Shown here: positions 4,327 through 61,099 of the stretch, one piece after another | Position numbering within the stretch: the stretch's first letter is position 1 | Layout: each line of letters opens with the position of its first letter | Made by a program: the position numbers and the translations under genes | DNA from: a virus | Length of the DNA stretch: 64,000 nucleotides | Strand: one strand, 5' to 3' | Virus record (IMG/VR): IMGVR_UViG_3300020129_000672 | Location: 13,211-77,210 of that record | Notes under the pieces: model-generated | Database searches by the model: none | What the model saw: only the letters and a program-made list of their open reading frames with translations | What the model was told of the DNA's origin: nothing

Positions 4327-4710
4327 ATGCAAAAACTTGTGCTCCGACTCTTACGTCAAGCGGCGATCGATCGTCGAATATTGATGGACCTGTTGGAGCG
4401 CGAGCATCATGAACGAAAGAAAATTATGAGTGCACTGACTAACCTTACCGAATCCATCTCCGCCCTTTCGACCTCGGTCGATAACGCGGTGGCCGCCTTG
4501 GCCGCCCAACCGTCAAACGATCCGGCGATCCAGGCGGCGGCCGACCAGGTGACGGCCCTGACCGCCCAGTTGGACGCCGCGGTCAACCCGCCGGTCGTCA
4601 CCCCGCCCCAACCGCCGGTCGTGCCCCAACAGTCGCCACGCACCCCCGCGCCGGCCCCCCGGTCGGTACTTGGCCAGGGCCATCCTCGGCCGATGAGCAA
4701 CCGCCGCTAA
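4327..4710 (+). CDS. coiled-coil/Pro-rich hypothetical protein
   Basis: TTGACC-17-TAACTT-7-ATG(4327); Ala/Leu heptads followed by a Pro-rich tail. Confidence 0.6.
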   Translation: MQKLVLRLLRQAAIDRRILMDLLEREHHERKKIMSALTNLTESISALSTSVDNAVAALAAQPSNDPAIQAAADQVTALTAQLDAAVNPPVVTPPQPPVVPQQSPRTPAPAPRSVLGQGHPRPMSNRR

Positions 4711-4747
4711 ATTGACGACCGGGCTTTCACCGGCGACCATCGGTCCC

Positions 4748-5365
4748 GTGAAAGCCCTTCCCCTGCTGTTCCTCGTCGTCATCTGCCTGCTCGCCCGACC
4801 GGACGGCCTGAACCATCATGGAGCCCTCTGGCAGCCTCGTACAGCCTCGATTCCGCAGGAGACCACCAACTGGGCGGTCCTGACCGGTTGCACGCTCATA
4901 TCGAACAGGAGCAACGACGGAGATAGCTTTCACGTCAGAGCTCAAGGAACCGACCGGATGTTCAGGCTGATCGGCGTTGATACGCTGGAGACCGATTGGC
5001 GATACCCCCAGCGTGACCTCGAGCAGGCCGCACATTTCCGGATCAGCACCAATCTGGTCGTCCAGTACGGTCGGCAGGCGCAGCAGCTCACAAGGAACCT
5101 GCTAAGCAGCGGCACCTTCACCGTCTACACCCGGTGGGCTGATGCACTGGGCGCCGGCCGACAACCGCGGTACCAAGCTTGGGTTGTTCTGGCCGACCGA
5201 CGGGAACTGGGGGACGTCCTTCTTCAATCTGGTCTTGCCCGTGCACATGGCTACCGAGCGGACAATCCACTAACTCATCAGTCGGCCGCGGATGAGCAAC
5301 TAAAATTGCTCGGTCTGGAGCGCCGAGCGATGACCAACCACGTTGGAATATGGAAAATAAATTAA
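4748..5365 (+). CDS. exported thermonuclease (SNase family)
   Basis: Hydrophobic N-terminus; DGDSF, RLIGVDTLE, LLQSGLARA, A..NHVGIW; TTGACG-17-GACCAT-7-GTG. Confidence 0.85.
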   Translation: MKALPLLFLVVICLLARPDGLNHHGALWQPRTASIPQETTNWAVLTGCTLISNRSNDGDSFHVRAQGTDRMFRLIGVDTLETDWRYPQRDLEQAAHFRISTNLVVQYGRQAQQLTRNLLSSGTFTVYTRWADALGAGRQPRYQAWVVLADRRELGDVLLQSGLARAHGYRADNPLTHQSAADEQLKLLGLERRAMTNHVGIWKIN

Positions 5366-9967: not shown

Positions 9968-10332
9968 AAGCCCTGCACGCCACGCCCCCGCTCTACCAGC
10001 GGATCCAGTTCCTGCAGCTGCCGGAGGCCGAACAGGCGCGCCAGCGGTTCCACAACCTGGTGCGCCTTCGTTGTTGCCCCGTCTGTGCCCGGCAGGCTGG
10101 CCCAGACGGACCGTTCTGCCCATTTCACCAATTCAGAGTGGCCGAACTGGAGCGCGAACGCCATGAGCGGCTCCGGCTGGCCGGCCGTTGCCAAGTCTGT
10201 GAGAGGCAGATGCGCCACCGCTCGTGCCCAGAGTGCAATCGAACGAGCCGAACGATCGACAGCTACCACGGGCTGCCCGTCGCCCCGTCCGTCCTTGAGC
10301 AGCTGATGCGGCAACAGGCGGAGGAGAGTTGA
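9964..10332 (+). CDS. Cys-rich zinc-finger protein
   Basis: CPVC...CPFH...CQVC...CPEC; ATGA overlap. Confidence 0.7.
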   Translation: MKALHATPPLYQRIQFLQLPEAEQARQRFHNLVRLRCCPVCARQAGPDGPFCPFHQFRVAELERERHERLRLAGRCQVCERQMRHRSCPECNRTSRTIDSYHGLPVAPSVLEQLMRQQAEES

Positions 10333-10357
10333 CAACCGGCGATGGGAAGCCGACAGT
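10329..10357 (+). promoter_or_regulatory. promoter of the large non-coding RNA
   Basis: TTGACA-17-GACAGT; no start codon follows. Confidence 0.6.
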
Positions 10358-10566
10358 CAGCTCGTCAGTTTTACGACTGACTGTGCCGACTCCCGATTCA
10401 TTGCTCGCCGCATTAGATCTCCATTGGCACGTCCGGCCCGGGTGAGAAATCGCCCGGGCCGAATCATTTTCTTGACCCTCACTGTTTCGGAACGACTCAT
10501 CCGTCGGCGAGCAAGGTGAATAGGGAGTATCAAAAACCCCATTATTCACCTGGCCGGCCCTCGGCT

Positions 10567-10596
10567 CTGCCAGGAGACTTGGCAGGTTCTTTGACA
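10567..10596 (+). promoter_or_regulatory. boxB-like hairpin plus boxA-like antitermination motif
   Basis: Hairpin ctgccaggagacttggcag immediately followed by GTTCTTTGACA. Confidence 0.45.
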
Positions 10597-11315
10597 GGCG
10601 GTTGTCTGTCGGTCGGTCAATCCAGCTCGGACGGGTACCGGATTTCCGGTCAGGTTGGTAGCTAGTGACCTGTTGCTGGCCTCAATTATTTGGAGCCCGT
10701 ACGGGTTGGATTGACCGACCAGGCAGGTCTGTGTGACGAACGGTCAGGCGCCGAAAGGTGCCACGGCTGACTTAAAATTAGTCGGAATACCCTATGATCG
10801 TTCGTCACACAGACCTGCCAGTAAGTTAGGTCGGCCGCCCGAGGTGGCGCGCCGGCTGACTCCTTCCCGCTGTAGCACCAGGGTGTGTAACGATCAGCGG
10901 GAGTCACGTAGAGTGATCCACCCAGTCGGGCGAAAGCCCACAACGGGCCAGAGATGAGACGGTGTCCGGGCGAATAAGAACTTGAAGGAGCGCCCGCAAG
11001 AATCTGGTCCACCCGCGAAAGCAGCGAGACCCCAGCATTGGGGCACGGATCGAAGGCTGTCCGAAAGGGCGGCAGTTCGAGTTGAATCAGCAAACAAGTC
11101 CCAGAGACAACCAACAGTCAGAGAATGGGTGAGTACGGTGGCGGCGCTAGCGGGCCGGGAGTAATCCTACCTGTATGCTTGGGATGTTTCCCGCCATCAG
11201 AAGACCAGGAACCTACCACCAGGGATTTTGAGGACAAATCCCTAGGCCAACCGCGTGCGTCGTACGGCTCGAAGTCGATCCGGCAGCAAGGGAATGAGAG
11301 TAGAGGAAAGTTTTT

Positions 11316-11792
11316 ATGTGTAGAATTCAGTTAACCAGAGGAAAGTTTGCCACTGTTGACCAGCGTGACTTCGATTACCTGAATCAATTTCGTTGGTACT
11401 GTTTAGAGATGGATCACACTAATTACGCCGCACGATCGGTTAAAGATCCAGAAACAGGGAAATGGCAATTGATCCTGATGCACAGAGACATTTTAGGGGT
11501 CGACCGATCCATTAAGATCGATCACAAAAACGGAAATGGACTTGATAATCAGCGAAAAAATCTGAGGCCAGCTACCAGTTCACAAAATGGTTGTAACAGG
11601 TTAAAATCACGCTCGAACAAAAGCGGATTCAAGGGGGTCTATTGGCATAAAAGGATCGGAAAATTTAGGTCTGAAATAAGGCTTTTAGGAAGGCGATTCC
11701 ATCTTGGTTACTTCAATACGGCGCTATCTGCTCACGCTGCTTATTGCGAAGCGGCCAATCGTCTCCATGGAGAATTTGCTAGAACATCGTAA
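11316..11792 (+). CDS. HNH homing endonuclease with C-terminal AP2 DNA-binding domain
   Basis: IQLTRGKFATVD, LMHRDIL, IDHKNGNGLDNQRKNLR, NKSGFKGV, HLGYF, A..LHGEFA; lower GC than flanks. Confidence 0.92.
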   Translation: MCRIQLTRGKFATVDQRDFDYLNQFRWYCLEMDHTNYAARSVKDPETGKWQLILMHRDILGVDRSIKIDHKNGNGLDNQRKNLRPATSSQNGCNRLKSRSNKSGFKGVYWHKRIGKFRSEIRLLGRRFHLGYFNTALSAHAAYCEAANRLHGEFARTS

Positions 11793-11962
11793 CCGTAATC
11801 AGGGTGATCAGCCTGATGGGTAATCCACCCCATTCCATGGTCAGCCAAGATAGCGGAATATCTGACCGCTATGATGTTCAACATGTATCTCGGAATCATG
11901 CTGGCGCTGACGATCGTCGTCGGCCTGACTGATACGATGGAGGCGCTGACAGTCGATTGATC

Positions 11963-11982
11963 TGTTCCATCAGGATGGAAAG
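11963..11982. promoter_or_regulatory. palindromic operator (copy 5)
   Basis: tgttcc atcaggat ggaaag, then 7 nt, then TTGAAC-16-GATGGT-7-ATG(12025). Confidence 0.7.
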
Positions 11983-12024
11983 GTTGGCCTTGAACGACCA
12001 GCCAGAAAGGCGATGGTCGGGCTG

Positions 12025-12564
12025 ATGAAAACCAAGTTGATCACCGCTCTTCGCCAATCAGCGGCGGCTGTTCGTAACCAGACGTTTGGCTATGAATGGT
12101 CGAACATGAAGTCCTGCAACTGTGGAGTCGTTGCCTGCGCGCTGCTGGGTTACGACCAGGAAAAATTAAATACCTCTCTTCCAACTAAGCCGCAATACAA
12201 CTGGCTGAAATTTGTTGGTGAATATTGCCCAGTTACGGGCCTGCCAGAACATCTGGTTTTGCGAGCGATGACCGATGCTGGCCTTTCTCCGCGCGATATC
12301 ATTGAACTTGAGGCGATGAGCAATCAACAGGTTTTGGCCCGCATGCCCGTGCAATACCAGACGAAGATCGTTGGCGGTTGGTGGGCGATGTTGTTCGGCC
12401 GTACGCGTGAAGTAAAACAACCTCGGCCGTTTCATTACACCAATCGTCAAGATCTCGTGCTGTACCTTGAGGCCTGGGCAGACCTGTTGGAGGAACAGGC
12501 GGATCCTCTTCGTCAGCCGGCCCGTCGGGACGATCCATTCATGCAGGCGATAGGGAGAAATTAA
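12025..12564 (+). CDS. hypothetical protein (CNCG motif)
   Basis: YEW...SCNCG...YCP.TG...YLEAWADLLE. Confidence 0.7.
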   Translation: MKTKLITALRQSAAAVRNQTFGYEWSNMKSCNCGVVACALLGYDQEKLNTSLPTKPQYNWLKFVGEYCPVTGLPEHLVLRAMTDAGLSPRDIIELEAMSNQQVLARMPVQYQTKIVGGWWAMLFGRTREVKQPRPFHYTNRQDLVLYLEAWADLLEEQADPLRQPARRDDPFMQAIGRN

Positions 12565-13713: not shown

Positions 13714-13931
13714 TTGTCTCGGCCGATCAAAAACCGCCGGTCGGTGGAATGGGCGGGTCGATCCACGATTGGGAGCGCGGGCTCGATCCGTGGCATGCTC
13801 AGGCCTTCCCCGCCCATCTGGCAGATCGGGCGCCCAATCAGGCAGAGCGCAAGGGTGGATGGTTTGCCCTCGATTACTGGAAGAACGAGATTGGTTTTAT
13901 TGCCGACGGAGACGCCTATGATCAAAGTTAG
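13710..13931 (+). CDS. hypothetical protein
   Basis: 73 aa; ATGA overlap. Confidence 0.5.
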   Translation: MIVSADQKPPVGGMGGSIHDWERGLDPWHAQAFPAHLADRAPNQAERKGGWFALDYWKNEIGFIADGDAYDQS

Positions 13932-14397
13932 AAAATCACCAACGGCCGATACACGTACCTGCGATTTTGCGAACGTCACCCGGCAGACGCTTGAGGCTTC
14001 GAGCTGTCAGCACATCGCGGATGTCGTTCAGGCCCTGGCATTTTTTCAGACTTACCTGACCAAGGCGGCAGGCGTTCACGACCAAGATAAGCTGACGGAC
14101 ATTGAATGGTTCCACCGCGACTTCATTACCGGCTTCAAGCAGACTGGGTGGTGGGATAACCATCGTCAGATCTGGCGCCACCACCTGAATAATACCGACG
14201 GCATTCCGCCGGACGTAAACCTGCTGGACGTTCTGGAATACGTCGCCGATTGCGTGATGGCCGGGATGGCTCGGTCGGGCTCGGTCTATGAGCTGAAGCT
14301 GCCGCCGGAATTATTGGAACGAGCGCTGAAGAATACGGTCGAGCTGCTGAAGGCTCAGGTGGTGGTCGACGATTCGGTTGAGACCAGTACAACCTAG
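13918..14397 (+). CDS. HD-superfamily (DUF5662-like) phosphohydrolase
   Basis: QH...VHDQDK...H...RHH...LDVLEYVADC. Confidence 0.65.
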   Translation: MIKVRKSPTADTRTCDFANVTRQTLEASSCQHIADVVQALAFFQTYLTKAAGVHDQDKLTDIEWFHRDFITGFKQTGWWDNHRQIWRHHLNNTDGIPPDVNLLDVLEYVADCVMAGMARSGSVYELKLPPELLERALKNTVELLKAQVVVDDSVETSTT

Positions 14398-52930: not shown

Positions 52931-55900
52931 ATGACGACCGCCGCCGATTCGGTTGGATCACCGGTCGGTGATCAGCCAGTTCCATTACCGCCCTTCCCGG
53001 GGACCGATACCGCAACGCCCCTTCCGTCACTCAGCGCCGAGCAGTTGGCGACCGCTCTGTACGGCTATCAGAAGCCGCCACCGCAGGAACGGCCGATCCC
53101 ACTTCCGCCGATCACGCAGCCGACCAAAACAATTGCCGATCAACAGGAGGTCCTCCAACCACCGCGTGACATCGGATTTGCCGATCGCTTAGGGGCGGCC
53201 ATTCGTGAGGCAGCCAGTCCGTTGATCGGCCAGACGCCGGTCCAAGCCGCCCAGGCAGAGACGGCGCAACAGCGGCTGCTCCCTGAATTTCGCGGCGGCC
53301 GATCACTGGCGCAAGTTCAGGCTGAGACGTACAGCCCTCAGGGTGACGTGTTGCCTGATCGCACCAAGGCACCACTCACCAGCTCGTTCTACCGCGGCGG
53401 CCGGCAGTTGGAGGACACCGGTCTGGCGCTCGCCCAATGGCTGGCAACGATGGCCGGCATAGAGACGCCCGCTATAGACGCGCAGAAGGCGTACAACGCG
53501 CAGAAGATCAGTGAGAACCCGCCGCTCATTCACGGACCGGATGAGGTTCGGAACCTCAGTGACGCTCTGACGTACGCGCTGGAACAGGTGGGGCAGAACG
53601 CACCAACCGCCGCCCCAGGAATGGTTGGTGGATTTGGCGCTGGTCAGATCGCGGCACGGACGGCCGGTAAGATCGGAGCTGAAGCGTTGGCCAACCGAGT
53701 GGCGGCCGGCCAGGCGATTGGCGCGACCGGCGGAAGCATCGCACAAGAAGTCGGGAGTATTTTCAGCGACGCGACTCAGGACAACCCGGCTGATCGTAAT
53801 CGCCTGACCGCCCTACTGTCGCTCGCACACGGTATTCCGGCCGGCCTGCTCGATGCGGTGGGGGAGAAACTGGCACTCGGTCGGCTGCCGGGTGGGCACG
53901 AGGTAGCTAGTGGCCCGCTCGAAAACTTCCTGAGCTCGAAAGGCAGCAGGTCGTTCTTTGTCAATGGGGTGGCGCGACTTGGTGACGCCGGGCTCGAGCA
54001 GTTTGTGACGCAGGCGCCGACCGAATATTTCCAGACGTTGATCGAACAGTCGGGCAAAGCGTCGTCCGATCTGTTGGGTCAGGATAAGTTTTGGGCCCAG
54101 TACTTCGATCAACTAACGAGCCCTGAAGCGCAGTCAGAACGCGCACAGGCGGCACTCGGTGGAGCGATCAGTGGTGTTGCTACCGGTGTGGCGTTCCAAC
54201 TGCCGGGTGTGGTGGGGAAGATTGCTGACGGTCGGGCGGCCGAGCGGGCGGTCAGCAACATTCGCCAAGAGCTCGATCGTCAGGCGTCCCAGCCAAAGCC
54301 TGAGACGGCTGGCACGCCCACCCAGTTCCAGACCGCCCCGGCGAGTGCCACCCTTCCTGTCGCTTCGGCTCAATCGGGACTGACGGCCGAACAATCGACG
54401 TTCGGGACCGTAACACCGGTCGATCAGGTGATCTTGCGTAACCGCTTTGACCAAGCAGTGGCGGCTGATCAGGCAAGAGCCGCTCAACCGGTCGCGCCGG
54501 CCGGTCCTCAAATCGAGACCGCCCCACCGACGGCCCTCCCTGATTTCAGCCAAGGTGCACCAGCCATCATGTCGTTGCTCGATCATCCGGTTGAGCAACT
54601 CCAACGAACGGCCGATCAGCAGGAGGCTCAAACTCCAGCTCCCCCCTCAGCCCCTCCCCTCCCGGGCTCGATCGAATACCAGGCGGCGATCAGGCAGGCC
54701 CGCCAGAACGCTCAGACTGCCACGCCGGCGACCGATCAGCCGGCAGTCGTGCCCAACATACCACCCGCCCGGCCGGTCGCTCAGGCGGTCAGCCAGGGGC
54801 CACAGGCGGCCATCCCGGCCGCTCCCTCACCGGCACCCGTCAGGCAGAACCAGGTAAAGCAGCAGGTGGCGAACGATCAGGCGTCGACCGTCAGGGCCGA
54901 ACAATCACCGGCGGTGGCGACCGATACCGAAGCGGCTGTCACGTACTTCCAACAGAATCCACAACACGCCCAGGCGGTGGCCGACTACATGGCGGTCGGT
55001 GATTACCGGGCGGCGGTTGATCGGGCGGTTGAATCCCTGCCAGAGACGGGTGGTGATGGTGATAGCTTTGTTCGTCAGCAACTGCAGGACCGGCTCTTTC
55101 AGTATGTGGTGCGTAAGAAGGATCAGGCGTTTAGCCAGAAGGGCGATCGGCCGACGCTCAAGACCGGCCCCGGCGGATTCCCGCTGAAGCAGGAGATCAG
55201 TCGGGCGGTCAAAGACTTTCTACGGAGTGAGCCGGCGCAGAACATCACGGCGGAGAACAAAGTAAACCTGACGGCCGACGTCACGGAAGGTCGGCGCTCA
55301 GCGGCTGAGACGCTGGCGGCCAAAGAGAGTCGGCCGGTGTTGACCGACGAGCTGAAGATCCGTGACCGCCTCCTCCAAGGCCTGACCGCCGGCAGTGTCG
55401 AACAGCTGGGACACGACGTGGTGGCGCAGAATGTTATTGGCCGAATGACCGGCGGTGGGACGGTCAACCTGACGACCGCCGGTACTGACACAGTGCCATG
55501 GCAGGCGGTGTCAAAGTGGGTGGCGACGAACGAGCGGTCGGTTCAGCAGAAGCTTCACAAGATTATCACCCAGCTACAGGCTGATCATGATGTTTCTTAT
55601 ATCAGTCAGAGCCTGATCGCCGCCTATGCCAATGCGCTGACCGGCACCGGTCGGGGGATGACGATCGATCAGGTGCGGCAGGCGGTGACCTCCACCTTCG
55701 GTCGGCTGCCACCGAATGTCCTGATCGTGAACGACCGGACGCTCGCCAGCCGAACGGGCGAGCCGCTGAAGGGAATGTACGTCGGTGGCCTGACCGACCG
55801 AATTGTTCTCAACGCGGCAAACCTCAACAACCCGCTGGATGCAACGATCGCCCTGCTGCACGAGACGCTCCACCGAGCGTGGGACTTGCCGGCCGTTCAG

Positions 55901-58900
55901 ACGGCGGTTACCAGATTGATGGAGGCAGTGAGCGGTCGAATCCAAGGGTACGACCCAGCGACCGTCCGGGAGGAACTGGCGGTCCGCGGTGCGACCGACC
56001 AATGGCAGTCCGATCAGCAACGTACGTTGTGGAACAAACTGGTCGACACCGTGTGGTCGGCCGTACGGAAGATCTTCGGCGCCGAACCGACACTCGTTGA
56101 GTTACGGCGTCAGCTGGTGGCCCGCGCCATTCGGTCGATCAACGGTGAGACCGTTACTCCTCGTGGAGTCATTCGGTATTACAATGGATTCCAAATTCAG
56201 AAGCAGGAGGATCTGGCCCAGGCGTTGTCGGCGCCCAACCTGTCGACCGAGCAACAGACGGGGATCACCCAAGTGGCGGGGGCGGTCAATCAGACTGTCC
56301 CACCGGCGGTCGCCCAGCAGCTCGACCAGTGGGCGAAGCACAAGCTTCAGCCACTTCCGGCTGGCCTTACTCCCGCCCAACGGCAGGCGATTGTCGCCAG
56401 CAACTCAACCCTCCGGACCGAACGGACGGTCAGTCAGATGCTTCGACCGGTGCTCGACATCTCGCGCCTGCAGGTTCAGCCGGTTGAGATCTCGGGCGTT
56501 CAGATCGGCGCGCGAGACATTGCGGCGAACGTCGTGCTCGAAACGGCCAATCGGATTGAGACGCTCAGACATTCGTTGGAGGCCGAGCTGCCGCAGGTGC
56601 AACAGCAGCTGAAGGACGCAACGGACAAGAAGGGTCAGGTCACACTCCTGACCGCTCAGGCTGACATGGCGAATGGCCTGGCGGCCGACCTGCTGGAGGC
56701 GGCGGAGGAATCGATCGACGCTCAGAGCCGGCTCGGTCCGTCGATCCCGGCCGCCCAACGGCAGGCGGTCGATCAGCTAAAGCTTCAGCTCGGCCTGCTA
56801 CAGAAGCGGGCACCAACGAGCGTCGGTCCGGCTCTTCAATGGGTGGCCGACCATCGGCCGATCGGGGCCGATCCAGTTCAGTGGTTGCTCCAACAACGCA
56901 CCGCCGGCTGGCCGGCCAATCCGGGCGGTACTGCCCCGATGAGCCCCCTGGTGTTCGACTACCTGGCAAGTGGCTGGAAGCCGGCGCTGAACAACCGGAC
57001 GGCCGAGATCGATCGGCTGACCCAACTGGCGGCCGACAAGGAATGGGCCCGCCAAGTGATCTCCGACACCGCTGATTTCTACCGCTCGCTCGGCCACGCG
57101 GTGAAGAGCGCGGTGACCGCCCGGCAGTTCGCCGAGGCGTATGGAAAATGGAAGGCCCAGGCTAAAGGACTGATCGACCAGGTCAGGGAGTACAACGGGG
57201 AAGTCCGTCGGGCGACCGATCGGATGGACGCCATTCAGTTGGCGATCCAGAAGATGGATGAGATTCAGACCAGTCCGGAATACAAAGACCAATGGGCGCA
57301 GGCGACCAACCAACTGGACGCCCGGCAGAAATCCAACTTGGAGGGTGGGGCGATCACCGACTTCTCGCAGGAGAATGGTGACTGGATTGTCAGGTCTCCA
57401 CTGACCGGTGAACAACTCCGGCTGCAGCACGGATGGAATGAGCAGGCGATTCAGAATAATGCCGATCTGGCTGAACGACTGATCAAAGAGATCAACGACT
57501 GGCAGGCGACCGGGCCGAACAACCCACCGCTGGAGAACATGTACGGCCGCCTCCGGGCCGAACTGCAGGCAGTATGGACCGGCTCGATCGTGACGATGAA
57601 CCTGACGGGGATGGTCACGCCCGTGTACTTCACCAAGGAATTCTCAATGTCACTGCCGGCCAACCTTACACTGTTCGCCGCCACCGGTGTGGCAAAGGTT
57701 GCGCGCGGCGCACTTAGGGCGATCAGCAGCGTGACTGGTCAGATGGTGGGGCGGGATCTCATTTACTCAACGGTCGGCGGGGTAGCCGGGCGGATGCTCG
57801 TTCGTTACATGACACGACCGGACCATGTGCGGAACGCCATCAACGCCGCGCGTGATCACAGTCGGTACGGTGCACATGCGATTGACCAGTCACTTTATCA
57901 AGGGGCGGTCAGGCATGGTCTCACTCGGGGGCTGACCAACGGTCAGGCGGCCGCCCGGTACAACGACAACGTGGTGAACTTCGTTCTCCGCAACGGCCAG
58001 TATATCGGCAAGGCGGCCACCCGGGTGGGCGACATCACACCGACGGGTGAGACGATCACTCAGGCGGACATTGATGCGGCGTGGAAGCATAAGCATTATC
58101 ATGACGCGATCCACAATTCAGCCAAGGCCAGTCAGGGTGGAGTCATGGAGTTTGCGCCGTTCCTGACCAACACCGAGAAGTGGTTCAGACGAGCGCTCGA
58201 CTGGGGGATGATGATGCAACGGCGGGTCGGTCACTGGGGTGGGCAGTTCATCACCGAATGGGAGGTGGCACGTAAGGCTGATCGAGAGGCGGTAGGACCG
58301 GGCGCTAGGGCAAATGCCATTCAGCTATTGGAGTCCAATCCCAACCACTTCACGCAGGCGGTGAATGGCATGGCCGAGTCGGTGGGCAACGAGTACCAGC
58401 TGACGGACAAGGTGCAACAGCAGGCGTTGGCCGATCGTTATGCGCTGCCGCCGGCCAGTCGGTTGTTCCACAACATGGAGGACTTCCGGAGTTGGATGGC
58501 CGATCGCCGGGAGGCGATCATCAATGCCAACCTGTTGCCCGGTCAGCCGGCGACCAGCCAGGCGGAGCAACGAGTGGAGGCCGAGCGGATCCTGGTGGAC
58601 GATCTTGATCGAGCCACCCGCCTGTTGGGTGATCAGAATTCAAACGGTGCGGAGTCGGACAGCCGGGTGATGGGCGTCGGTCAGCCATCGGTCTCGAGCT
58701 TGACCGGCAGTTCGTCGTTTACCCGGCCGCGGGGAAATCAGGTGGCACCCAACACGTTCTACGATTACACGCTGGGCCAGGAGGCTGATCGCCTGCGGTA
58801 CAATGCGAGTGCCATGCGGTACTACCAGAAGATGGAGATCGACGCCTTGGGATCGGTCATCAAGTCGATGGAGCTAGAACGGCAGCGGCAGGAGAAACTG

Positions 58901-61099
58901 TGGGAGGACTTCCAGACCGCACGAGCGGCCTCACCGTTGGGCCCGATTGATCGTCTGCTGTCAGGTCGTCGGCAGTTCAAGATCGAGCAATACCGGGCGG
59001 TCAAGGCCGGGCAGTCTCTTACGACCCTTCAGGCGATCACGACCGTCCTGAACGATCTGAGGGCGGTAGACCGGGGCATGCGGTCGGCCATGGCGAGTGC
59101 CGACATTGAGGACAACCAGCTGGTGCGCGTCCTCTCGCAGTTCGAGGTCATCACCAGCCTGATCAAACTCGCGAGCCTGCCCGTGCAGTTCACCAACCAA
59201 CTTGGGGCGAGTCAGATCGGCCCGCTGCTCAGCGACTTCGCGCGCGCCAGAGGGAAGTTCGGGATCTTCAACAGCCTGGCGGTGATGAGCCGGCAGTTTG
59301 GTCAGGTGGCAGCCAGCTACTACCGGACGGCCATTCATCTGGCGCTCGGTCACGAGTGGAGCCCGATGAAGAACTTGCTGACCGCCCATCCTGGGGTGTT
59401 CGTCGGTCTGGCCAGCCATCTGACGAGGCAGATAATGCAACGTCAGGCGGACATCGATTTCCTGGCCAACCAAGCAGGCACCCATCCGCCCCCGACGTTC
59501 AAGGAGGCGGCTGGGCGTCTGTGGTTTCAAGTCACGACGCTGTCGAAGACATCGGGCCGGGTGACCGACCGGCCGACCAATGCGTTTGAGGCGCTGACCA
59601 ACTGGGTGTTGTTCCCCGGTGCGCTGAACAAACTTCTGGCCAGTTACTTTCATTCGAATGTCGACGCCATGGGGCTGCGAACACAGGTTGCCATAACCCA
59701 ATCAACTCTAGCAGGGATCAGAGGGGCGGTCATCAGGGCCTACCAGATGCGGGAAAGTGCGGGCGTCCCGCTCGGTCAGCCACTGACCTACCAAGAGTTG
59801 CAGGAGAATGGTCAGACCGGGATGGCCTATCTGCGTGACATCTTCAGCCCGGCCGGTCGGCTCGAACCGGTGTTCGAAGACTTCTACACGCGGTATAAGG
59901 CGGCGACTGATAAGGATTCGGTGCCACTCCTGCGGCCGGGCGTTGATCGCGATGTGGTGACGCGAATTCTCAGCCACGGCAATATCATCAACGACAGCGG
60001 AAAGGGTGAGGGGGCGAAGGGCAAGGGCATGAAGGGAATGGTCAAGACGGCGGCCAGCCGGTTCAGCAGCTTCCCTATTCACTTCACGGCCATCCTGCCC
60101 CAAGCAGCCTACCGCGACGCGCGGGATCACGGTCAGCTGTCGAAAGAAGCCTATCACTTGGCGACCGCCCTGGGTTTCATGGCCATCATGGTCGCCCTCT
60201 CGGCGGTGAACCTGACGGGTAGTCAGTGGTCGCGCGAGTTGATGACCGGCAAAGTCCCGTCGACTCCGACAGCCGTCAACCTCCTGTCGAGCGGTCAGCC
60301 GCTGGACTTTGCCAAAGTCTTTTACCTGGGTGGTACGAGTCTGATGTTGCCGATCTATAGCGATTACATCTCAAGCGCCATCAGCGGGCAGCAGCAGCGC
60401 AATCCGTTTGACCTGACGTCGATGATCCCTGGCGCCGGTGCACTGGCGTCCGTCGGTAAGATGATTACGCAGGTCGCCCAGTCGGGTGATCTGTATTACC
60501 CGACCGTCGGGTTTCTCAAAAGCCAGAGCCCGCTGTTCGAGGCGGTGTACAACCGAACGGCCGGCGCGGCCGAGCTCGATCAACTGAATGCCGCGCGGGC
60601 CTTTCGGTCGGCCGCCCCGTCTGACATCTCGATCCGTCAGCCGGATGGCGGGACGGTCAGGTTGACCACCCAGAGTCCGGACATAAGGGATGCGCTGCGG
60701 GCGGCTGCAACGGGCGATCAGCAGGCGTTTAACAAGGCGGTTGACTCGGCAGTAGCAAAGGTGGTGGCGGCCGGCGGTAGTCCGCTGACAGCTCGGAAGA
60801 AGATCCTTCAATCAATCCAAGCTAGGTCGCCCGAACGCTCGGTCTTCGGTCGTACACTCTTGCCAGACGAGATGGTCCGAGTAGAGGCCCGCATGACCGG
60901 CAGTCAGCTGGCGGCCGTCCGGGCCGTGCGAGAGATCAGTGCTCGCATTGACAGTTGGACGGGCGCCAAGCACAAGGCACCGACGGGTAAGAGACTGGCC
61001 GGTGGATCAGCCACTGGCTTGACCGCCCGGCTTGGCCCGAGCCTGCCGCGGCTTAGACCGCCCAAGCAGCTTCGCCCGAAACTGGCGGCTGCACGCTAG
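52931..61099 (+). CDS. giant internal virion/ejection protein with zincin-like HExxH
   Basis: 2722 aa; last late gene; KGMY...IVLNAAN...LLHETLH...EELA. Confidence 0.7.
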   Translation: MTTAADSVGSPVGDQPVPLPPFPGTDTATPLPSLSAEQLATALYGYQKPPPQERPIPLPPITQPTKTIADQQEVLQPPRDIGFADRLGAAIREAASPLIGQTPVQAAQAETAQQRLLPEFRGGRSLAQVQAETYSPQGDVLPDRTKAPLTSSFYRGGRQLEDTGLALAQWLATMAGIETPAIDAQKAYNAQKISENPPLIHGPDEVRNLSDALTYALEQVGQNAPTAAPGMVGGFGAGQIAARTAGKIGAEALANRVAAGQAIGATGGSIAQEVGSIFSDATQDNPADRNRLTALLSLAHGIPAGLLDAVGEKLALGRLPGGHEVASGPLENFLSSKGSRSFFVNGVARLGDAGLEQFVTQAPTEYFQTLIEQSGKASSDLLGQDKFWAQYFDQLTSPEAQSERAQAALGGAISGVATGVAFQLPGVVGKIADGRAAERAVSNIRQELDRQASQPKPETAGTPTQFQTAPASATLPVASAQSGLTAEQSTFGTVTPVDQVILRNRFDQAVAADQARAAQPVAPAGPQIETAPPTALPDFSQGAPAIMSLLDHPVEQLQRTADQQEAQTPAPPSAPPLPGSIEYQAAIRQARQNAQTATPATDQPAVVPNIPPARPVAQAVSQGPQAAIPAAPSPAPVRQNQVKQQVANDQASTVRAEQSPAVATDTEAAVTYFQQNPQHAQAVADYMAVGDYRAAVDRAVESLPETGGDGDSFVRQQLQDRLFQYVVRKKDQAFSQKGDRPTLKTGPGGFPLKQEISRAVKDFLRSEPAQNITAENKVNLTADVTEGRRSAAETLAAKESRPVLTDELKIRDRLLQGLTAGSVEQLGHDVVAQNVIGRMTGGGTVNLTTAGTDTVPWQAVSKWVATNERSVQQKLHKIITQLQADHDVSYISQSLIAAYANALTGTGRGMTIDQVRQAVTSTFGRLPPNVLIVNDRTLASRTGEPLKGMYVGGLTDRIVLNAANLNNPLDATIALLHETLHRAWDLPAVQTAVTRLMEAVSGRIQGYDPATVREELAVRGATDQWQSDQQRTLWNKLVDTVWSAVRKIFGAEPTLVELRRQLVARAIRSINGETVTPRGVIRYYNGFQIQKQEDLAQALSAPNLSTEQQTGITQVAGAVNQTVPPAVAQQLDQWAKHKLQPLPAGLTPAQRQAIVASNSTLRTERTVSQMLRPVLDISRLQVQPVEISGVQIGARDIAANVVLETANRIETLRHSLEAELPQVQQQLKDATDKKGQVTLLTAQADMANGLAADLLEAAEESIDAQSRLGPSIPAAQRQAVDQLKLQLGLLQKRAPTSVGPALQWVADHRPIGADPVQWLLQQRTAGWPANPGGTAPMSPLVFDYLASGWKPALNNRTAEIDRLTQLAADKEWARQVISDTADFYRSLGHAVKSAVTARQFAEAYGKWKAQAKGLIDQVREYNGEVRRATDRMDAIQLAIQKMDEIQTSPEYKDQWAQATNQLDARQKSNLEGGAITDFSQENGDWIVRSPLTGEQLRLQHGWNEQAIQNNADLAERLIKEINDWQATGPNNPPLENMYGRLRAELQAVWTGSIVTMNLTGMVTPVYFTKEFSMSLPANLTLFAATGVAKVARGALRAISSVTGQMVGRDLIYSTVGGVAGRMLVRYMTRPDHVRNAINAARDHSRYGAHAIDQSLYQGAVRHGLTRGLTNGQAAARYNDNVVNFVLRNGQYIGKAATRVGDITPTGETITQADIDAAWKHKHYHDAIHNSAKASQGGVMEFAPFLTNTEKWFRRALDWGMMMQRRVGHWGGQFITEWEVARKADREAVGPGARANAIQLLESNPNHFTQAVNGMAESVGNEYQLTDKVQQQALADRYALPPASRLFHNMEDFRSWMADRREAIINANLLPGQPATSQAEQRVEAERILVDDLDRATRLLGDQNSNGAESDSRVMGVGQPSVSSLTGSSSFTRPRGNQVAPNTFYDYTLGQEADRLRYNASAMRYYQKMEIDALGSVIKSMELERQRQEKLWEDFQTARAASPLGPIDRLLSGRRQFKIEQYRAVKAGQSLTTLQAITTVLNDLRAVDRGMRSAMASADIEDNQLVRVLSQFEVITSLIKLASLPVQFTNQLGASQIGPLLSDFARARGKFGIFNSLAVMSRQFGQVAASYYRTAIHLALGHEWSPMKNLLTAHPGVFVGLASHLTRQIMQRQADIDFLANQAGTHPPPTFKEAAGRLWFQVTTLSKTSGRVTDRPTNAFEALTNWVLFPGALNKLLASYFHSNVDAMGLRTQVAITQSTLAGIRGAVIRAYQMRESAGVPLGQPLTYQELQENGQTGMAYLRDIFSPAGRLEPVFEDFYTRYKAATDKDSVPLLRPGVDRDVVTRILSHGNIINDSGKGEGAKGKGMKGMVKTAASRFSSFPIHFTAILPQAAYRDARDHGQLSKEAYHLATALGFMAIMVALSAVNLTGSQWSRELMTGKVPSTPTAVNLLSSGQPLDFAKVFYLGGTSLMLPIYSDYISSAISGQQQRNPFDLTSMIPGAGALASVGKMITQVAQSGDLYYPTVGFLKSQSPLFEAVYNRTAGAAELDQLNAARAFRSAAPSDISIRQPDGGTVRLTTQSPDIRDALRAAATGDQQAFNKAVDSAVAKVVAAGGSPLTARKKILQSIQARSPERSVFGRTLLPDEMVRVEARMTGSQLAAVRAVREISARIDSWTGAKHKAPTGKRLAGGSATGLTARLGPSLPRLRPPKQLRPKLAAAR

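What the first reader, a model, noticed from the sequence alone, without database searches (positions are those of the whole stretch)
10364..11872. Giant structured ncRNA that appears to carry an HNH-AP2 endonuclease gene inside its 3' domain
Seen: a promoter (TTGACA-17-GACAGT) opens ~950 nt with no credible CDS in an otherwise gene-dense genome. The stretch holds a 19-bp and a 25-bp helix with G-U pairs (which favours + strand RNA), nested multi-branch stems and four GAAA tetraloops. Pairings continue across the HNH ORF: gaccaggaa (11203-11211) with ttccatggtc (11833-11842). The loop of the terminal hairpin atagcgg-aatatctga-ccgctat (11850-11872) is complementary to tcaga at 11197-11201, which would form a pseudoknot. 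Known: GOLLD and ROOL are large phage-associated RNAs of this size and style. My recollection that GOLLD ends in a similar pseudoknotted hairpin is approximate. Inference: a GOLLD-like or new large RNA has been invaded by, or works with, a homing endonuclease placed in a tolerant loop, like intron-encoded endonucleases but without recognisable intron motifs.
Basis: partly seen in the sequence, partly recalled or inferred. Interest (0 to 1): 0.85.

Follow-up and report, generated by a model that had tools for sequence, protein, structure and literature searches.

The report
Orphan structured phage RNA beside endonuclease
A gene-free stretch of about 0.7-0.95 kb in an uncultured 77-kb phage very probably encodes a folded non-coding RNA of no known family, and the small DNA-cutting enzyme gene after it is an ordinary mobile passenger next to the RNA, not part of it.

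Summary
Three are far beyond chance. The 10333-11315 stretch has no credible coding frame. It holds the two longest inverted repeats of the window, helices of 19 and 25 bp. It also holds four GAAA-capped hairpins, all on the + strand; the whole 77-kb genome has only five. Mismatches in the robust helices are G-U on the + strand, so this is + strand RNA structure.

The strong signal covers only about 10383-11090. The last 190 nt before the HNH gene fold no better than shuffles. The pairings and the pseudoknot said to bridge the HNH ORF are at chance level.

The HNH-AP2 gene is intact. It is foreign by GC and codon usage. It belongs to a free-standing homing-endonuclease family found in about 1900 phage records, and none of 80 relatives has this RNA nearby.

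Rfam gives no hit to GOLLD, ROOL, HEARO or group I/II introns, and the phage has no reverse transcriptase.

No homologue of the RNA or of its upstream genes was found, so covariation could not be tested. The scan has noted other large phage RNA candidates elsewhere, but none resembles this sequence. Verdict: a plausible new orphan large RNA; the nested-endonuclease idea is not supported.

The parts
10329..10357 (+). Promoter-like site: TTGACA, 17 nt, GACAGT. The -35 box overlaps the stop codon of the upstream gene. Predicted start is near 10364.
   Evidence: Read. Not called by the consensus scan. -10-like hexamers of the same type follow other -35 boxes of this phage. Function is inferred.
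10364..10430 (+). Two 5' helices: 10364-10381 (7 bp) and 10383-10389 / 10424-10430 (7 bp).
   Evidence: Pair probabilities 0.97-0.98.
10434..10461 (+). 12-bp G+C-rich hairpin capped by GAAA, with one U-G pair. A weak U-run follows, so it is terminator-like.
10514..10551 (+). 9-bp hairpin with an inner G/C stem. It closes the 5' domain 10396-10565, which has z -5.3.
10566..10596 (+). 8-9-bp hairpin followed by GTTCTTTGACA. This can be read as a terminator tail, a second TTGACA box, or a boxA-like word. Unresolved.
10586..11126 (+). Predicted long-range closing helix, 10586-10607 with 11105-11126 (10 + 8 bp), enclosing the core.
   Evidence: Ensemble probability at least 0.96. Helices of this size arise in 18.5% of shuffles, so it is not significant alone.
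10611..10720 (+). Arm H2a: a 19-bp plus 5-bp stem carrying a three-hairpin tip.
   Evidence: z -6.9 on the + strand. Probability 1.00. Second longest inverted repeat of the window.
10722..10819 (+). Arm H2b: a 25-bp stem with one G-U pair, carrying a GAAA-capped hairpin (10747-10762) and an A/U-loop hairpin.
   Evidence: z -10.8. Probability 0.99. Longest inverted repeat of the window.
10824..11092 (+). Cluster of short hairpins, including GAAA-capped 10928-10939 and 11050-11080 (the latter with two G-U pairs).
   Evidence: Fold signal is only weak, z about -2.1 to -2.2.
11127..11315 (+). Spacer or leader before the endonuclease gene. No fold signal. Contains the gene's ribosome-binding site.
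   Evidence: z +0.8 to +1.0. 12-nt word AGAGGAAAGTTT at 11302, repeated at 11337.
11316..11792 (+). Free-standing HNH-AP2 homing endonuclease gene, 158 aa, intact and of foreign composition.
   Evidence: Pfam AP2 1e-9 and HNH_3 6e-5. phrog_99 4e-37. Invariant D69, H70, N82 and N91. GC 42%. Codon score -0.15.
11793..11872 (+). Tail after the endonuclease gene, with the 7-bp hairpin 11850-11872. No link to the upstream RNA was shown.
   Evidence: Local z -2.3. Cross-ORF pairing at chance level.
11874..11963 (+). Possible 29-codon hydrophobic small ORF. It is not part of the RNA.
   Evidence: Codon score +0.43 but very short. No obvious ribosome-binding site.
11965..12010 (+). Operator-like palindrome TTCCA-N6-TGGAA plus a TTGAAC box. 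This marks the start of the next transcription unit and bounds the non-coding unit.

Best explanation
The stretch 10329 to about 11126 is a dedicated non-coding RNA unit of the phage's early region, read on the + strand. It probably starts at the promoter-like site at 10329-10357.

The RNA folds into three parts. The first is a 5' domain with a GAAA-capped 12-bp hairpin. The second is a pair of rod-like branched arms with 19-bp and 25-bp stems. The third is a cluster of short hairpins, two of them GAAA-capped.

Inferred mechanism:
- The GAAA loops dock into the minor grooves of the long helices and compact the RNA into a stable particle.
- That particle acts in trans early in infection, like other large phage RNAs of unknown role.
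- The two long stems are of RNase III length, so the mature product may be cut from a longer precursor.

The HNH-AP2 gene at 11316-11792 is a separate, recently acquired free-standing homing endonuclease. It landed in the non-coding space downstream and is probably expressed by read-through. It is not nested in the RNA fold.

Shown: absence of coding, strand-specific structure, the foreign nature of the endonuclease gene, and no membership in a known family. Inferred: the transcript ends, tertiary docking, processing, and any function.
For: - No coding signal. All ORFs in 10333-11315 score negative on the phage's codon usage and have no Pfam or PHROG match.
- Exceptional folding. z is -11.5 for the whole stretch. 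By domain, z is -5.3, -6.9 and -10.8 for 10396-10827. The stretch holds the top folding outlier of the 64 kb and its two longest inverted repeats.
- Strand specificity. Four GAAA-capped hairpins lie on the + strand and none on the - strand; shuffles give a mean of 0.09 and 0 of 1000 reach four. These are four of only five in the whole 77-kb genome. No 1-kb cluster of four occurs in about 2 Mb of other loci.
- Three of the four mismatches in the two long inverted repeats are G-U on the + strand; the fourth is a G-A mismatch. The two GAAA-capped hairpins 10434-10461 and 11056-11073 hold three more G-U pairs. The + strand gains about 27 kcal/mol more over its shuffles than the - strand does.
- The unit is bounded by a promoter-like site at one end and by the next operator and promoter at 11965.
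- The endonuclease is separate. Its GC is 42% against 58% and its codon score is -0.15. Its family occurs in 1904 phage records, in several copies in some. Eighty relatives have no similar RNA nearby. There is no structure across the ORF.
Against: - No homologue of the RNA was found, so there is no covariation evidence at all.
- The 3' half, 10828-11126, has only a weak fold signal, z about -2.
- The closing helix is not significant.
- Two terminator-like hairpins inside the unit could break it into shorter transcripts.
- Uninterrupted helices of 19-25 bp are RNase III substrates, so one intact large RNA may not persist.
- GAAA loops are also common on plain stable hairpins and terminators.
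- The promoter's -10 hexamer is weak.
Confidence: 0.45

Rival explanations
1. The stretch is a composite cis-acting early-region spacer, not a trans-acting giant RNA. It would hold the terminator or attenuator of the upstream operon (10434-10461 and 10566-10586), RNase III processing hairpins (H2a, H2b) like those between the early genes of T7, and a leader for the endonuclease and downstream genes.
For: - There are two terminator-like hairpins on the + strand.
- Stems of 19-25 bp are of RNase III length.
- The strong fold signal sits in a few local hairpins, and 10828-11315 is weak or null.
- No terminator lies between the structures and the endonuclease gene, so they are probably co-transcribed.
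Against: - About 1 kb of pure spacer is costly in a gene-dense phage.
- Four GAAA-capped hairpins and branched tips on both arms exceed what processing sites need.
- The endonuclease is a recent arrival, so the structures were not built as its leader.
Confidence: 0.25
2. One reading: one RNA of about 1.5 kb whose 3' domain closes around the HNH-AP2 ORF, either as an intron-like tolerant loop or as an RNA-nuclease module.
For: The quoted complementary words exist at the stated positions. No terminator separates the RNA from the ORF.
Against: - The quoted pairing is worth -10.4 kcal/mol. The best flank-to-tail duplex is matched by 35% of shuffles and by 54% of other real segments.
- The flank joined to the tail has z -0.85, and the flank alone has z +0.8.
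- Relatives of the endonuclease stand alone without such an RNA.
- The ORF region's composition is foreign.
Confidence: 0.05
3. A self-splicing group I or group II intron carrying a homing endonuclease and interrupting a phage gene.
For: HNH endonucleases are often intron-encoded in phages (general knowledge). GAAA tetraloops are typical of such introns.
Against: - No Rfam hit to group I, group II or any ribozyme at E<=10, even on short pieces.
- The genome has no reverse transcriptase.
- The upstream ORF ends at its own stop codon, and downstream there is at most a 29-codon frame.
- There is no structure across the ORF.
Confidence: 0.03
4. A DNA-level element that uses the inverted repeats as cruciforms or protein-binding sites, such as a replication origin, a recombination site, or miniature inverted-repeat mobile elements.
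For: The two longest inverted repeats of the window lie side by side. The - strand also folds well, z -8.
Against: - The signals are strand-specific: G-U pairs on the + strand only, and GAAA caps 4 to 0.
- There are no iterons or direct-repeat families.
- The arm 18-mer has no second copy in the phage. It gave only single chance hits in IMG/VR and in species-representative genomes, so no repeat family is seen.
Confidence: 0.07

Closest known systems
GOLLD (Rfam RF01998) and ROOL (RF03087), large ornate RNAs of phages and prophages that form RNA-only multimers (10.1101/2024.12.08.627333)
   Same: Carried by a phage. Several hundred nucleotides long with many branches. No coding capacity and unknown role. 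Rich in tetraloop-capped hairpins.
   Different: No covariance-model match, even at E<=10. No neighbouring tRNA genes. Two long uninterrupted stems. No relatives are known, so conservation is untested.
Free-standing HNH-AP2 (HNH_3 + AP2) homing endonucleases of phages (PHROG 99)
   Same: The ORF 11316-11792 has both domains and the invariant D-H...N...N residues. It has foreign composition and an intergenic position.
   Different: Nothing unusual in the gene itself. Its cleavage target is unknown; it could lie in the RNA gene of phages that lack the endonuclease.
HEARO / IscB omega RNA (Rfam RF02033), a structured RNA next to an HNH-domain ORF
   Same: A large structured RNA directly upstream of an ORF with an HNH domain.
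   Different: No model hit. The protein has 158 aa with only HNH_3 and AP2, and no RuvC part. Its relatives lack any such RNA.
Pre-rRNA design: boxB-boxA leader plus a leader-trailer helix cut by RNase III (PMC10250234)
   Same: A hairpin is followed by a boxA-like word, GTTCTTTGACA. A predicted 18-bp helix joins sequence just after it to sequence 500 nt downstream.
   Different: The helix is not above chance. The word can equally be a terminator tail or a -35 box. The boxA consensus is recalled from general knowledge and the host is unknown.
RNase III processing hairpins of the phage T7 early transcript (general knowledge)
   Same: Long hairpins in an early, co-directional transcript, placed between genes.
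   Different: The T7 sites are single hairpins of about 60 nt with an internal loop, each sitting between coding genes. Here about 1 kb is gene-free, and the stems carry branched, tetraloop-capped tips.

Membership tests
GOLLD RNA (RF01998) | Match to the family covariance model | tested here: not met
   No hit at gathering score or at E<=10 on 1.9 kb and on sub-pieces.
ROOL RNA (RF03087) | Match to the family covariance model | tested here: not met
   no hit.
Group I intron (RF00028) | Conserved catalytic core (P3-P9) recognised by the model | tested here: not met
   No hit at E<=10. The call without the ORF could not be run, because joined sequences cannot be submitted.
Group I intron (RF00028) | Interrupts a host gene whose exons join in frame | tested here: inconclusive
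   The upstream ORF ends at its own stop, and downstream only a 29-codon frame follows. The upstream protein has no relatives to compare ends with.
Group II intron (RF00029 and D1-D4 models) | Domain V/VI model match and, usually, an intron-encoded reverse transcriptase | tested here: not met
   No model hit. No RVT_1 match in the 77-kb genome, while the control genomes did give matches.
HEARO / IscB omega RNA (RF02033) | Model match, plus an adjacent IscB-type protein (RuvC + HNH, about 400-500 aa) | tested here: not met
   No model hit. The ORF has 158 aa with HNH_3 and AP2 only.
Free-standing HNH-AP2 homing endonuclease | HNH_3 and AP2 domains with intact catalytic residues | tested here: met
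   AP2 scores 39 bits, above the cut-off. HNH_3 scores 23 bits, just below its 24.8 cut-off. phrog_99 4e-37. D69, H70, N82 and N91 are invariant among 9 sequences.
Free-standing HNH-AP2 homing endonuclease | Mobile: patchy distribution, foreign composition, intergenic position | tested here: met
   1904 phage records across many hosts, all below 60% identity. GC 42% against 58%. Codon score -0.15. Single copy in this genome.
Free-standing HNH-AP2 homing endonuclease | Cleaves the endonuclease-free allele near its insertion site | not testable with these tools
   No endonuclease-free relative was found. This needs a cleavage assay.
Structured non-coding RNA (generic) | Helices kept by compensatory changes in relatives | not testable with these tools
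   No homologue was found in any collection reached.
Structured non-coding RNA (generic) | Transcribed as a stable RNA | not testable with these tools
   No sequencing run could be listed.

The most novel reading that the evidence does not exclude
The founding member of a new class of large phage RNAs of at least 0.7 kb. It would be compacted by GAAA-tetraloop docking onto two long arms. It would be made as an rRNA-style unit, with a hairpin plus boxA-like leader, a leader-trailer helix, and stems of RNase III length. It would also serve as the homing target of the neighbouring HNH-AP2 endonuclease.
Probability: 0.12. Interest if true: 0.7.

Novelty: new variant of a known kind. Interest (0 to 1): 0.42.

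Why it matters
Large folded RNAs without a known job, such as GOLLD and ROOL, are among the least understood products of phage genomes. Every new, unrelated example widens the set in which function can be sought. This one is compact, strongly strand-specific and sits in an early transcription unit, so it is easy to synthesise and probe. The case also gives a practical lesson. A homing endonuclease gene next to a structured RNA is most simply a passenger that landed in non-coding space, and complementary words across such a gene should be tested against shuffles before a nested design is proposed.

Tried and rejected
SEARCHES FOR HOMOLOGUES OF THE RNA, ALL EMPTY
- blastn against INPHARED phages. 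Against plasmids there was one 45-nt chance hit.
- nhmmer and blastn against 80 loci of endonuclease relatives, 65 metagenome loci of downstream-gene relatives and 32 loci of DUF5662 relatives.
- Five records of the nearest structural relatives, by BLAST and by covariance model R1.
- R1 over 750 kb of loci gave only the self hit.
- Exact 18-mers gave one chance hit in IMG/VR, three single chance hits in species-representative genomes and none for a second word.

SEARCHES FOR RELATIVES OF THE NEIGHBOURING GENES
- Both upstream proteins are orphans among 5.8 billion proteins.
- The helicase has no close relative in IMG/VR.
- The closest relative of the downstream gene (L091, 40% identity) lies in a gene-dense stretch with no gap.

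TOOLS THAT GAVE NOTHING OR COULD NOT BE USED
- The look-up of sequencing runs: none was listed and no RNA holder was listed.
- Rfam with the ORF removed could not be run, because joined sequences cannot be submitted.

IDEAS REJECTED
- CsrA-type sponge: GGA motifs are not enriched.
- Retron or group II element: no reverse transcriptase.
- Host-derived repeat element: no second copies.
- Unusual base composition as evidence: the region is not a composition outlier.
- Leader-trailer helix as evidence: not significant.
- A cluster of three GAAA hairpins in L123 proved to be A+T-rich coding DNA.

Full report
CONTEXT

The window is bases 13211-77210 of a complete 77,210-bp IMG/VR phage record. Its direct terminal repeats are 127 bp. 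Nearly all long ORFs are on the + strand.

The phage is very isolated. It has no match in INPHARED for the RNA region or for a 590-aa late-region (probably structural) protein. The nearest IMG/VR contigs share 38-40% identity in that protein. Both genes just upstream of the finding are orphans among 5.8 billion proteins.

THE OBSERVATION

The stretch 10333-11315 lies between a 122-aa zinc-ribbon-like ORF that ends at 10332 and the HNH-AP2 ORF at 11316-11792.
- Every ORF of 30 aa or more inside it scores negative on a codon-usage log-odds trained on 13 long genes of this phage. Neighbouring real genes mostly score positive.
- None of these ORFs has a Pfam or PHROG match.

Folding:
- The full 981 nt fold at -456.7 kcal/mol, z -11.5, on the + strand. 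The - strand gives -417.5 kcal/mol, z -8.0.
- In a scan of 213 windows of 300 nt, window 10501-10800 is the strongest outlier. It is 45 kcal/mol below its shuffles, against a window mean of -4.2 with sd 6.6.
- By domain, z is -5.3 for 10396-10565, -6.9 for 10604-10728 and -10.8 for 10715-10827. It is only -2.2 for 10828-11100 and +0.8 for 11125-11315 (repeated with ensemble diversity).
- The 19-bp and 25-bp helices are the two longest local inverted repeats in the 64 kb.

STRAND AND RNA NATURE

Hairpins with a stem of at least 4 bp closed by a GAAA loop occur four times on the + strand of the region, at loops 10446, 10753, 10932 and 11063. None occurs on the - strand.
- Dinucleotide shuffles give a mean of 0.09, and none of 1000 reaches four.
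- The whole 77-kb genome has five on its + strand.
- About 2 Mb of unrelated loci have 0.12 per kb, with no 1-kb cluster of four.

Three of the four mismatches in the two long inverted repeats are G-U on the + strand. They would be A-C on the other strand. The fourth is a G-A mismatch. The two GAAA-capped hairpins 10434-10461 and 11056-11073 hold three more G-U pairs. These points argue for a + strand RNA fold and against a purely DNA-level palindrome.

WHAT IS NOT SUPPORTED

- The pairing said to bridge the endonuclease ORF is 9 bp with a bulge, worth -10.4 kcal/mol.
- The best duplex between the 191-nt flank and the 88-nt tail is equalled by 35% of shuffled tails and by 54% of 126 other real segments.
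- Joining flank and tail gives z -0.85.
- The 5-nt pseudoknot was not scored; it is too short to stand above chance on its own.
- The predicted long-range helix 10586-10607 / 11105-11126 is stable in the ensemble, with probability at least 0.96. However, helices of that size arise in 18.5% of shuffles, and a looser duplex test is also null.

The confident structured part is therefore about 10383-10827. A plausible extension runs to about 11090, on the strength of two more GAAA hairpins.

THE ENDONUCLEASE

- The 158-aa ORF has AP2 (1e-9) and HNH_3 (6e-5) domains and matches phrog_99 at 4e-37.
- The D-H...N...N residues are invariant in an alignment with eight relatives.
- Its GC is about 42% against about 58% around it, and its codon score is -0.15. 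It is therefore a recent foreign arrival.
- Relatives occur in 1904 phage records of many hosts, all below 60% identity, with up to six places in one genome. This phage has one copy.
- Eighty IMG/VR loci with relatives show no sequence like the RNA or the tail, and no GAAA-hairpin cluster.

It is an ordinary free-standing homing endonuclease beside the RNA.

KNOWN FAMILIES

Rfam 15 gives nothing at gathering score for the whole window. At E<=10 it gives only hairpin noise from microRNA and snoRNA models, both for 10200-12100 and for two sub-pieces. GOLLD, ROOL, HEARO, group I and II introns, RNase P and ribozymes are thus not matched. The window has no tRNA or tmRNA gene. The genome has no reverse transcriptase.

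SEARCH FOR RELATIVES

Flanking-gene routes were tried in four ways, none of which gave a locus with a similar RNA:
- the downstream 183-aa protein;
- the upstream proteins;
- the DUF5662 neighbour;
- the helicase.

Exact-word scans and a covariance model found only chance hits or the sequence itself. Covariation and expression therefore remain untested.

Earlier notes of this scan describe other large phage RNA candidates in other genomes, but none resembles this sequence.

READING

The most economical account is a dedicated non-coding RNA unit. It is bounded by the promoter-like site at 10329 and by the next operator and promoter at 11965. A homing endonuclease gene has inserted into its non-coding downstream space.

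Two terminator-like hairpins and the RNase III-length stems leave room for a rival account, in which the stretch is mainly cis-acting: termination, processing and a leader.

The word GTTCTTTGACA after the hairpin at 10566-10586 resembles boxA of rRNA leaders. That consensus is from general knowledge; the element order is given in PMC10250234. The word can equally be a terminator tail or a -35 box.

SCORES

Observation: partly confirmed. First interpretation: partly supported. Novelty: a new variant of a known kind, namely a large phage RNA outside all catalogued families. Interest is moderate, because the RNA is an orphan and the most striking claim, a nested endonuclease, fails.

Noticed in passing
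window 10586-10596: GTTCTTTGACA directly after a 9-bp hairpin resembles the boxA word of rRNA leaders. It also contains a perfect TTGACA and a U-rich terminator tail. It occurs exactly once in the window.
   Followed up: partly
window 11302-11313 and 11337-11348: An exact 12-nt direct repeat, AGAGGAAAGTTT. One copy is the ribosome-binding region of the endonuclease gene. The other lies inside its codons 8-11. It may be a trace of the insertion event or a self-regulatory site.
   Followed up: no
window 11874-11963: A 29-codon hydrophobic ORF with the best codon-usage score of the neighbourhood (+0.43). Its start codon overlaps the 3' arm of hairpin 11850-11872. It may be a real small membrane peptide.
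   Followed up: partly
window 975, 2339, 8804, 11965, 14398, 15540: A recurring palindrome, (C)TTTCCA-N6-TGGAAAG, is followed after 7 nt by a TTGATC/TTGAAC box in four of the six copies (975, 2339, 11965, 14398). It looks like an operator-promoter module of the early genes. The -10 regions are weak by sigma-70 rules.
   Followed up: partly
window 10683-10692 and 10773-10781: The tip loops of the two long arms are pure A/U, although the RNA has 58% G+C. Both contain the self-complementary word AAUU, so they are candidates for a loop-loop (kissing) contact within or between molecules.
   Followed up: no
window 4480-4820: A G-rich - strand segment across a gene junction folds with z -4.1 on the - strand and -3.3 on the + strand. 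It includes a strong hairpin near 4700. It is probably a terminator or regulatory hairpin.
   Followed up: partly
window 52931-61099: A 2722-aa ORF with no Pfam match lies at the end of the late region of a 77-kb phage with 127-bp terminal repeats. It could be a virion-packaged giant protein.
   Followed up: no
window 13714-14397: The DUF5662 protein is 54-75% identical to proteins in 32 otherwise unrelated IMG/VR phages with GC from 37% to 73%. It is a strikingly conserved, widely exchanged early gene of unknown function.
   Followed up: partly
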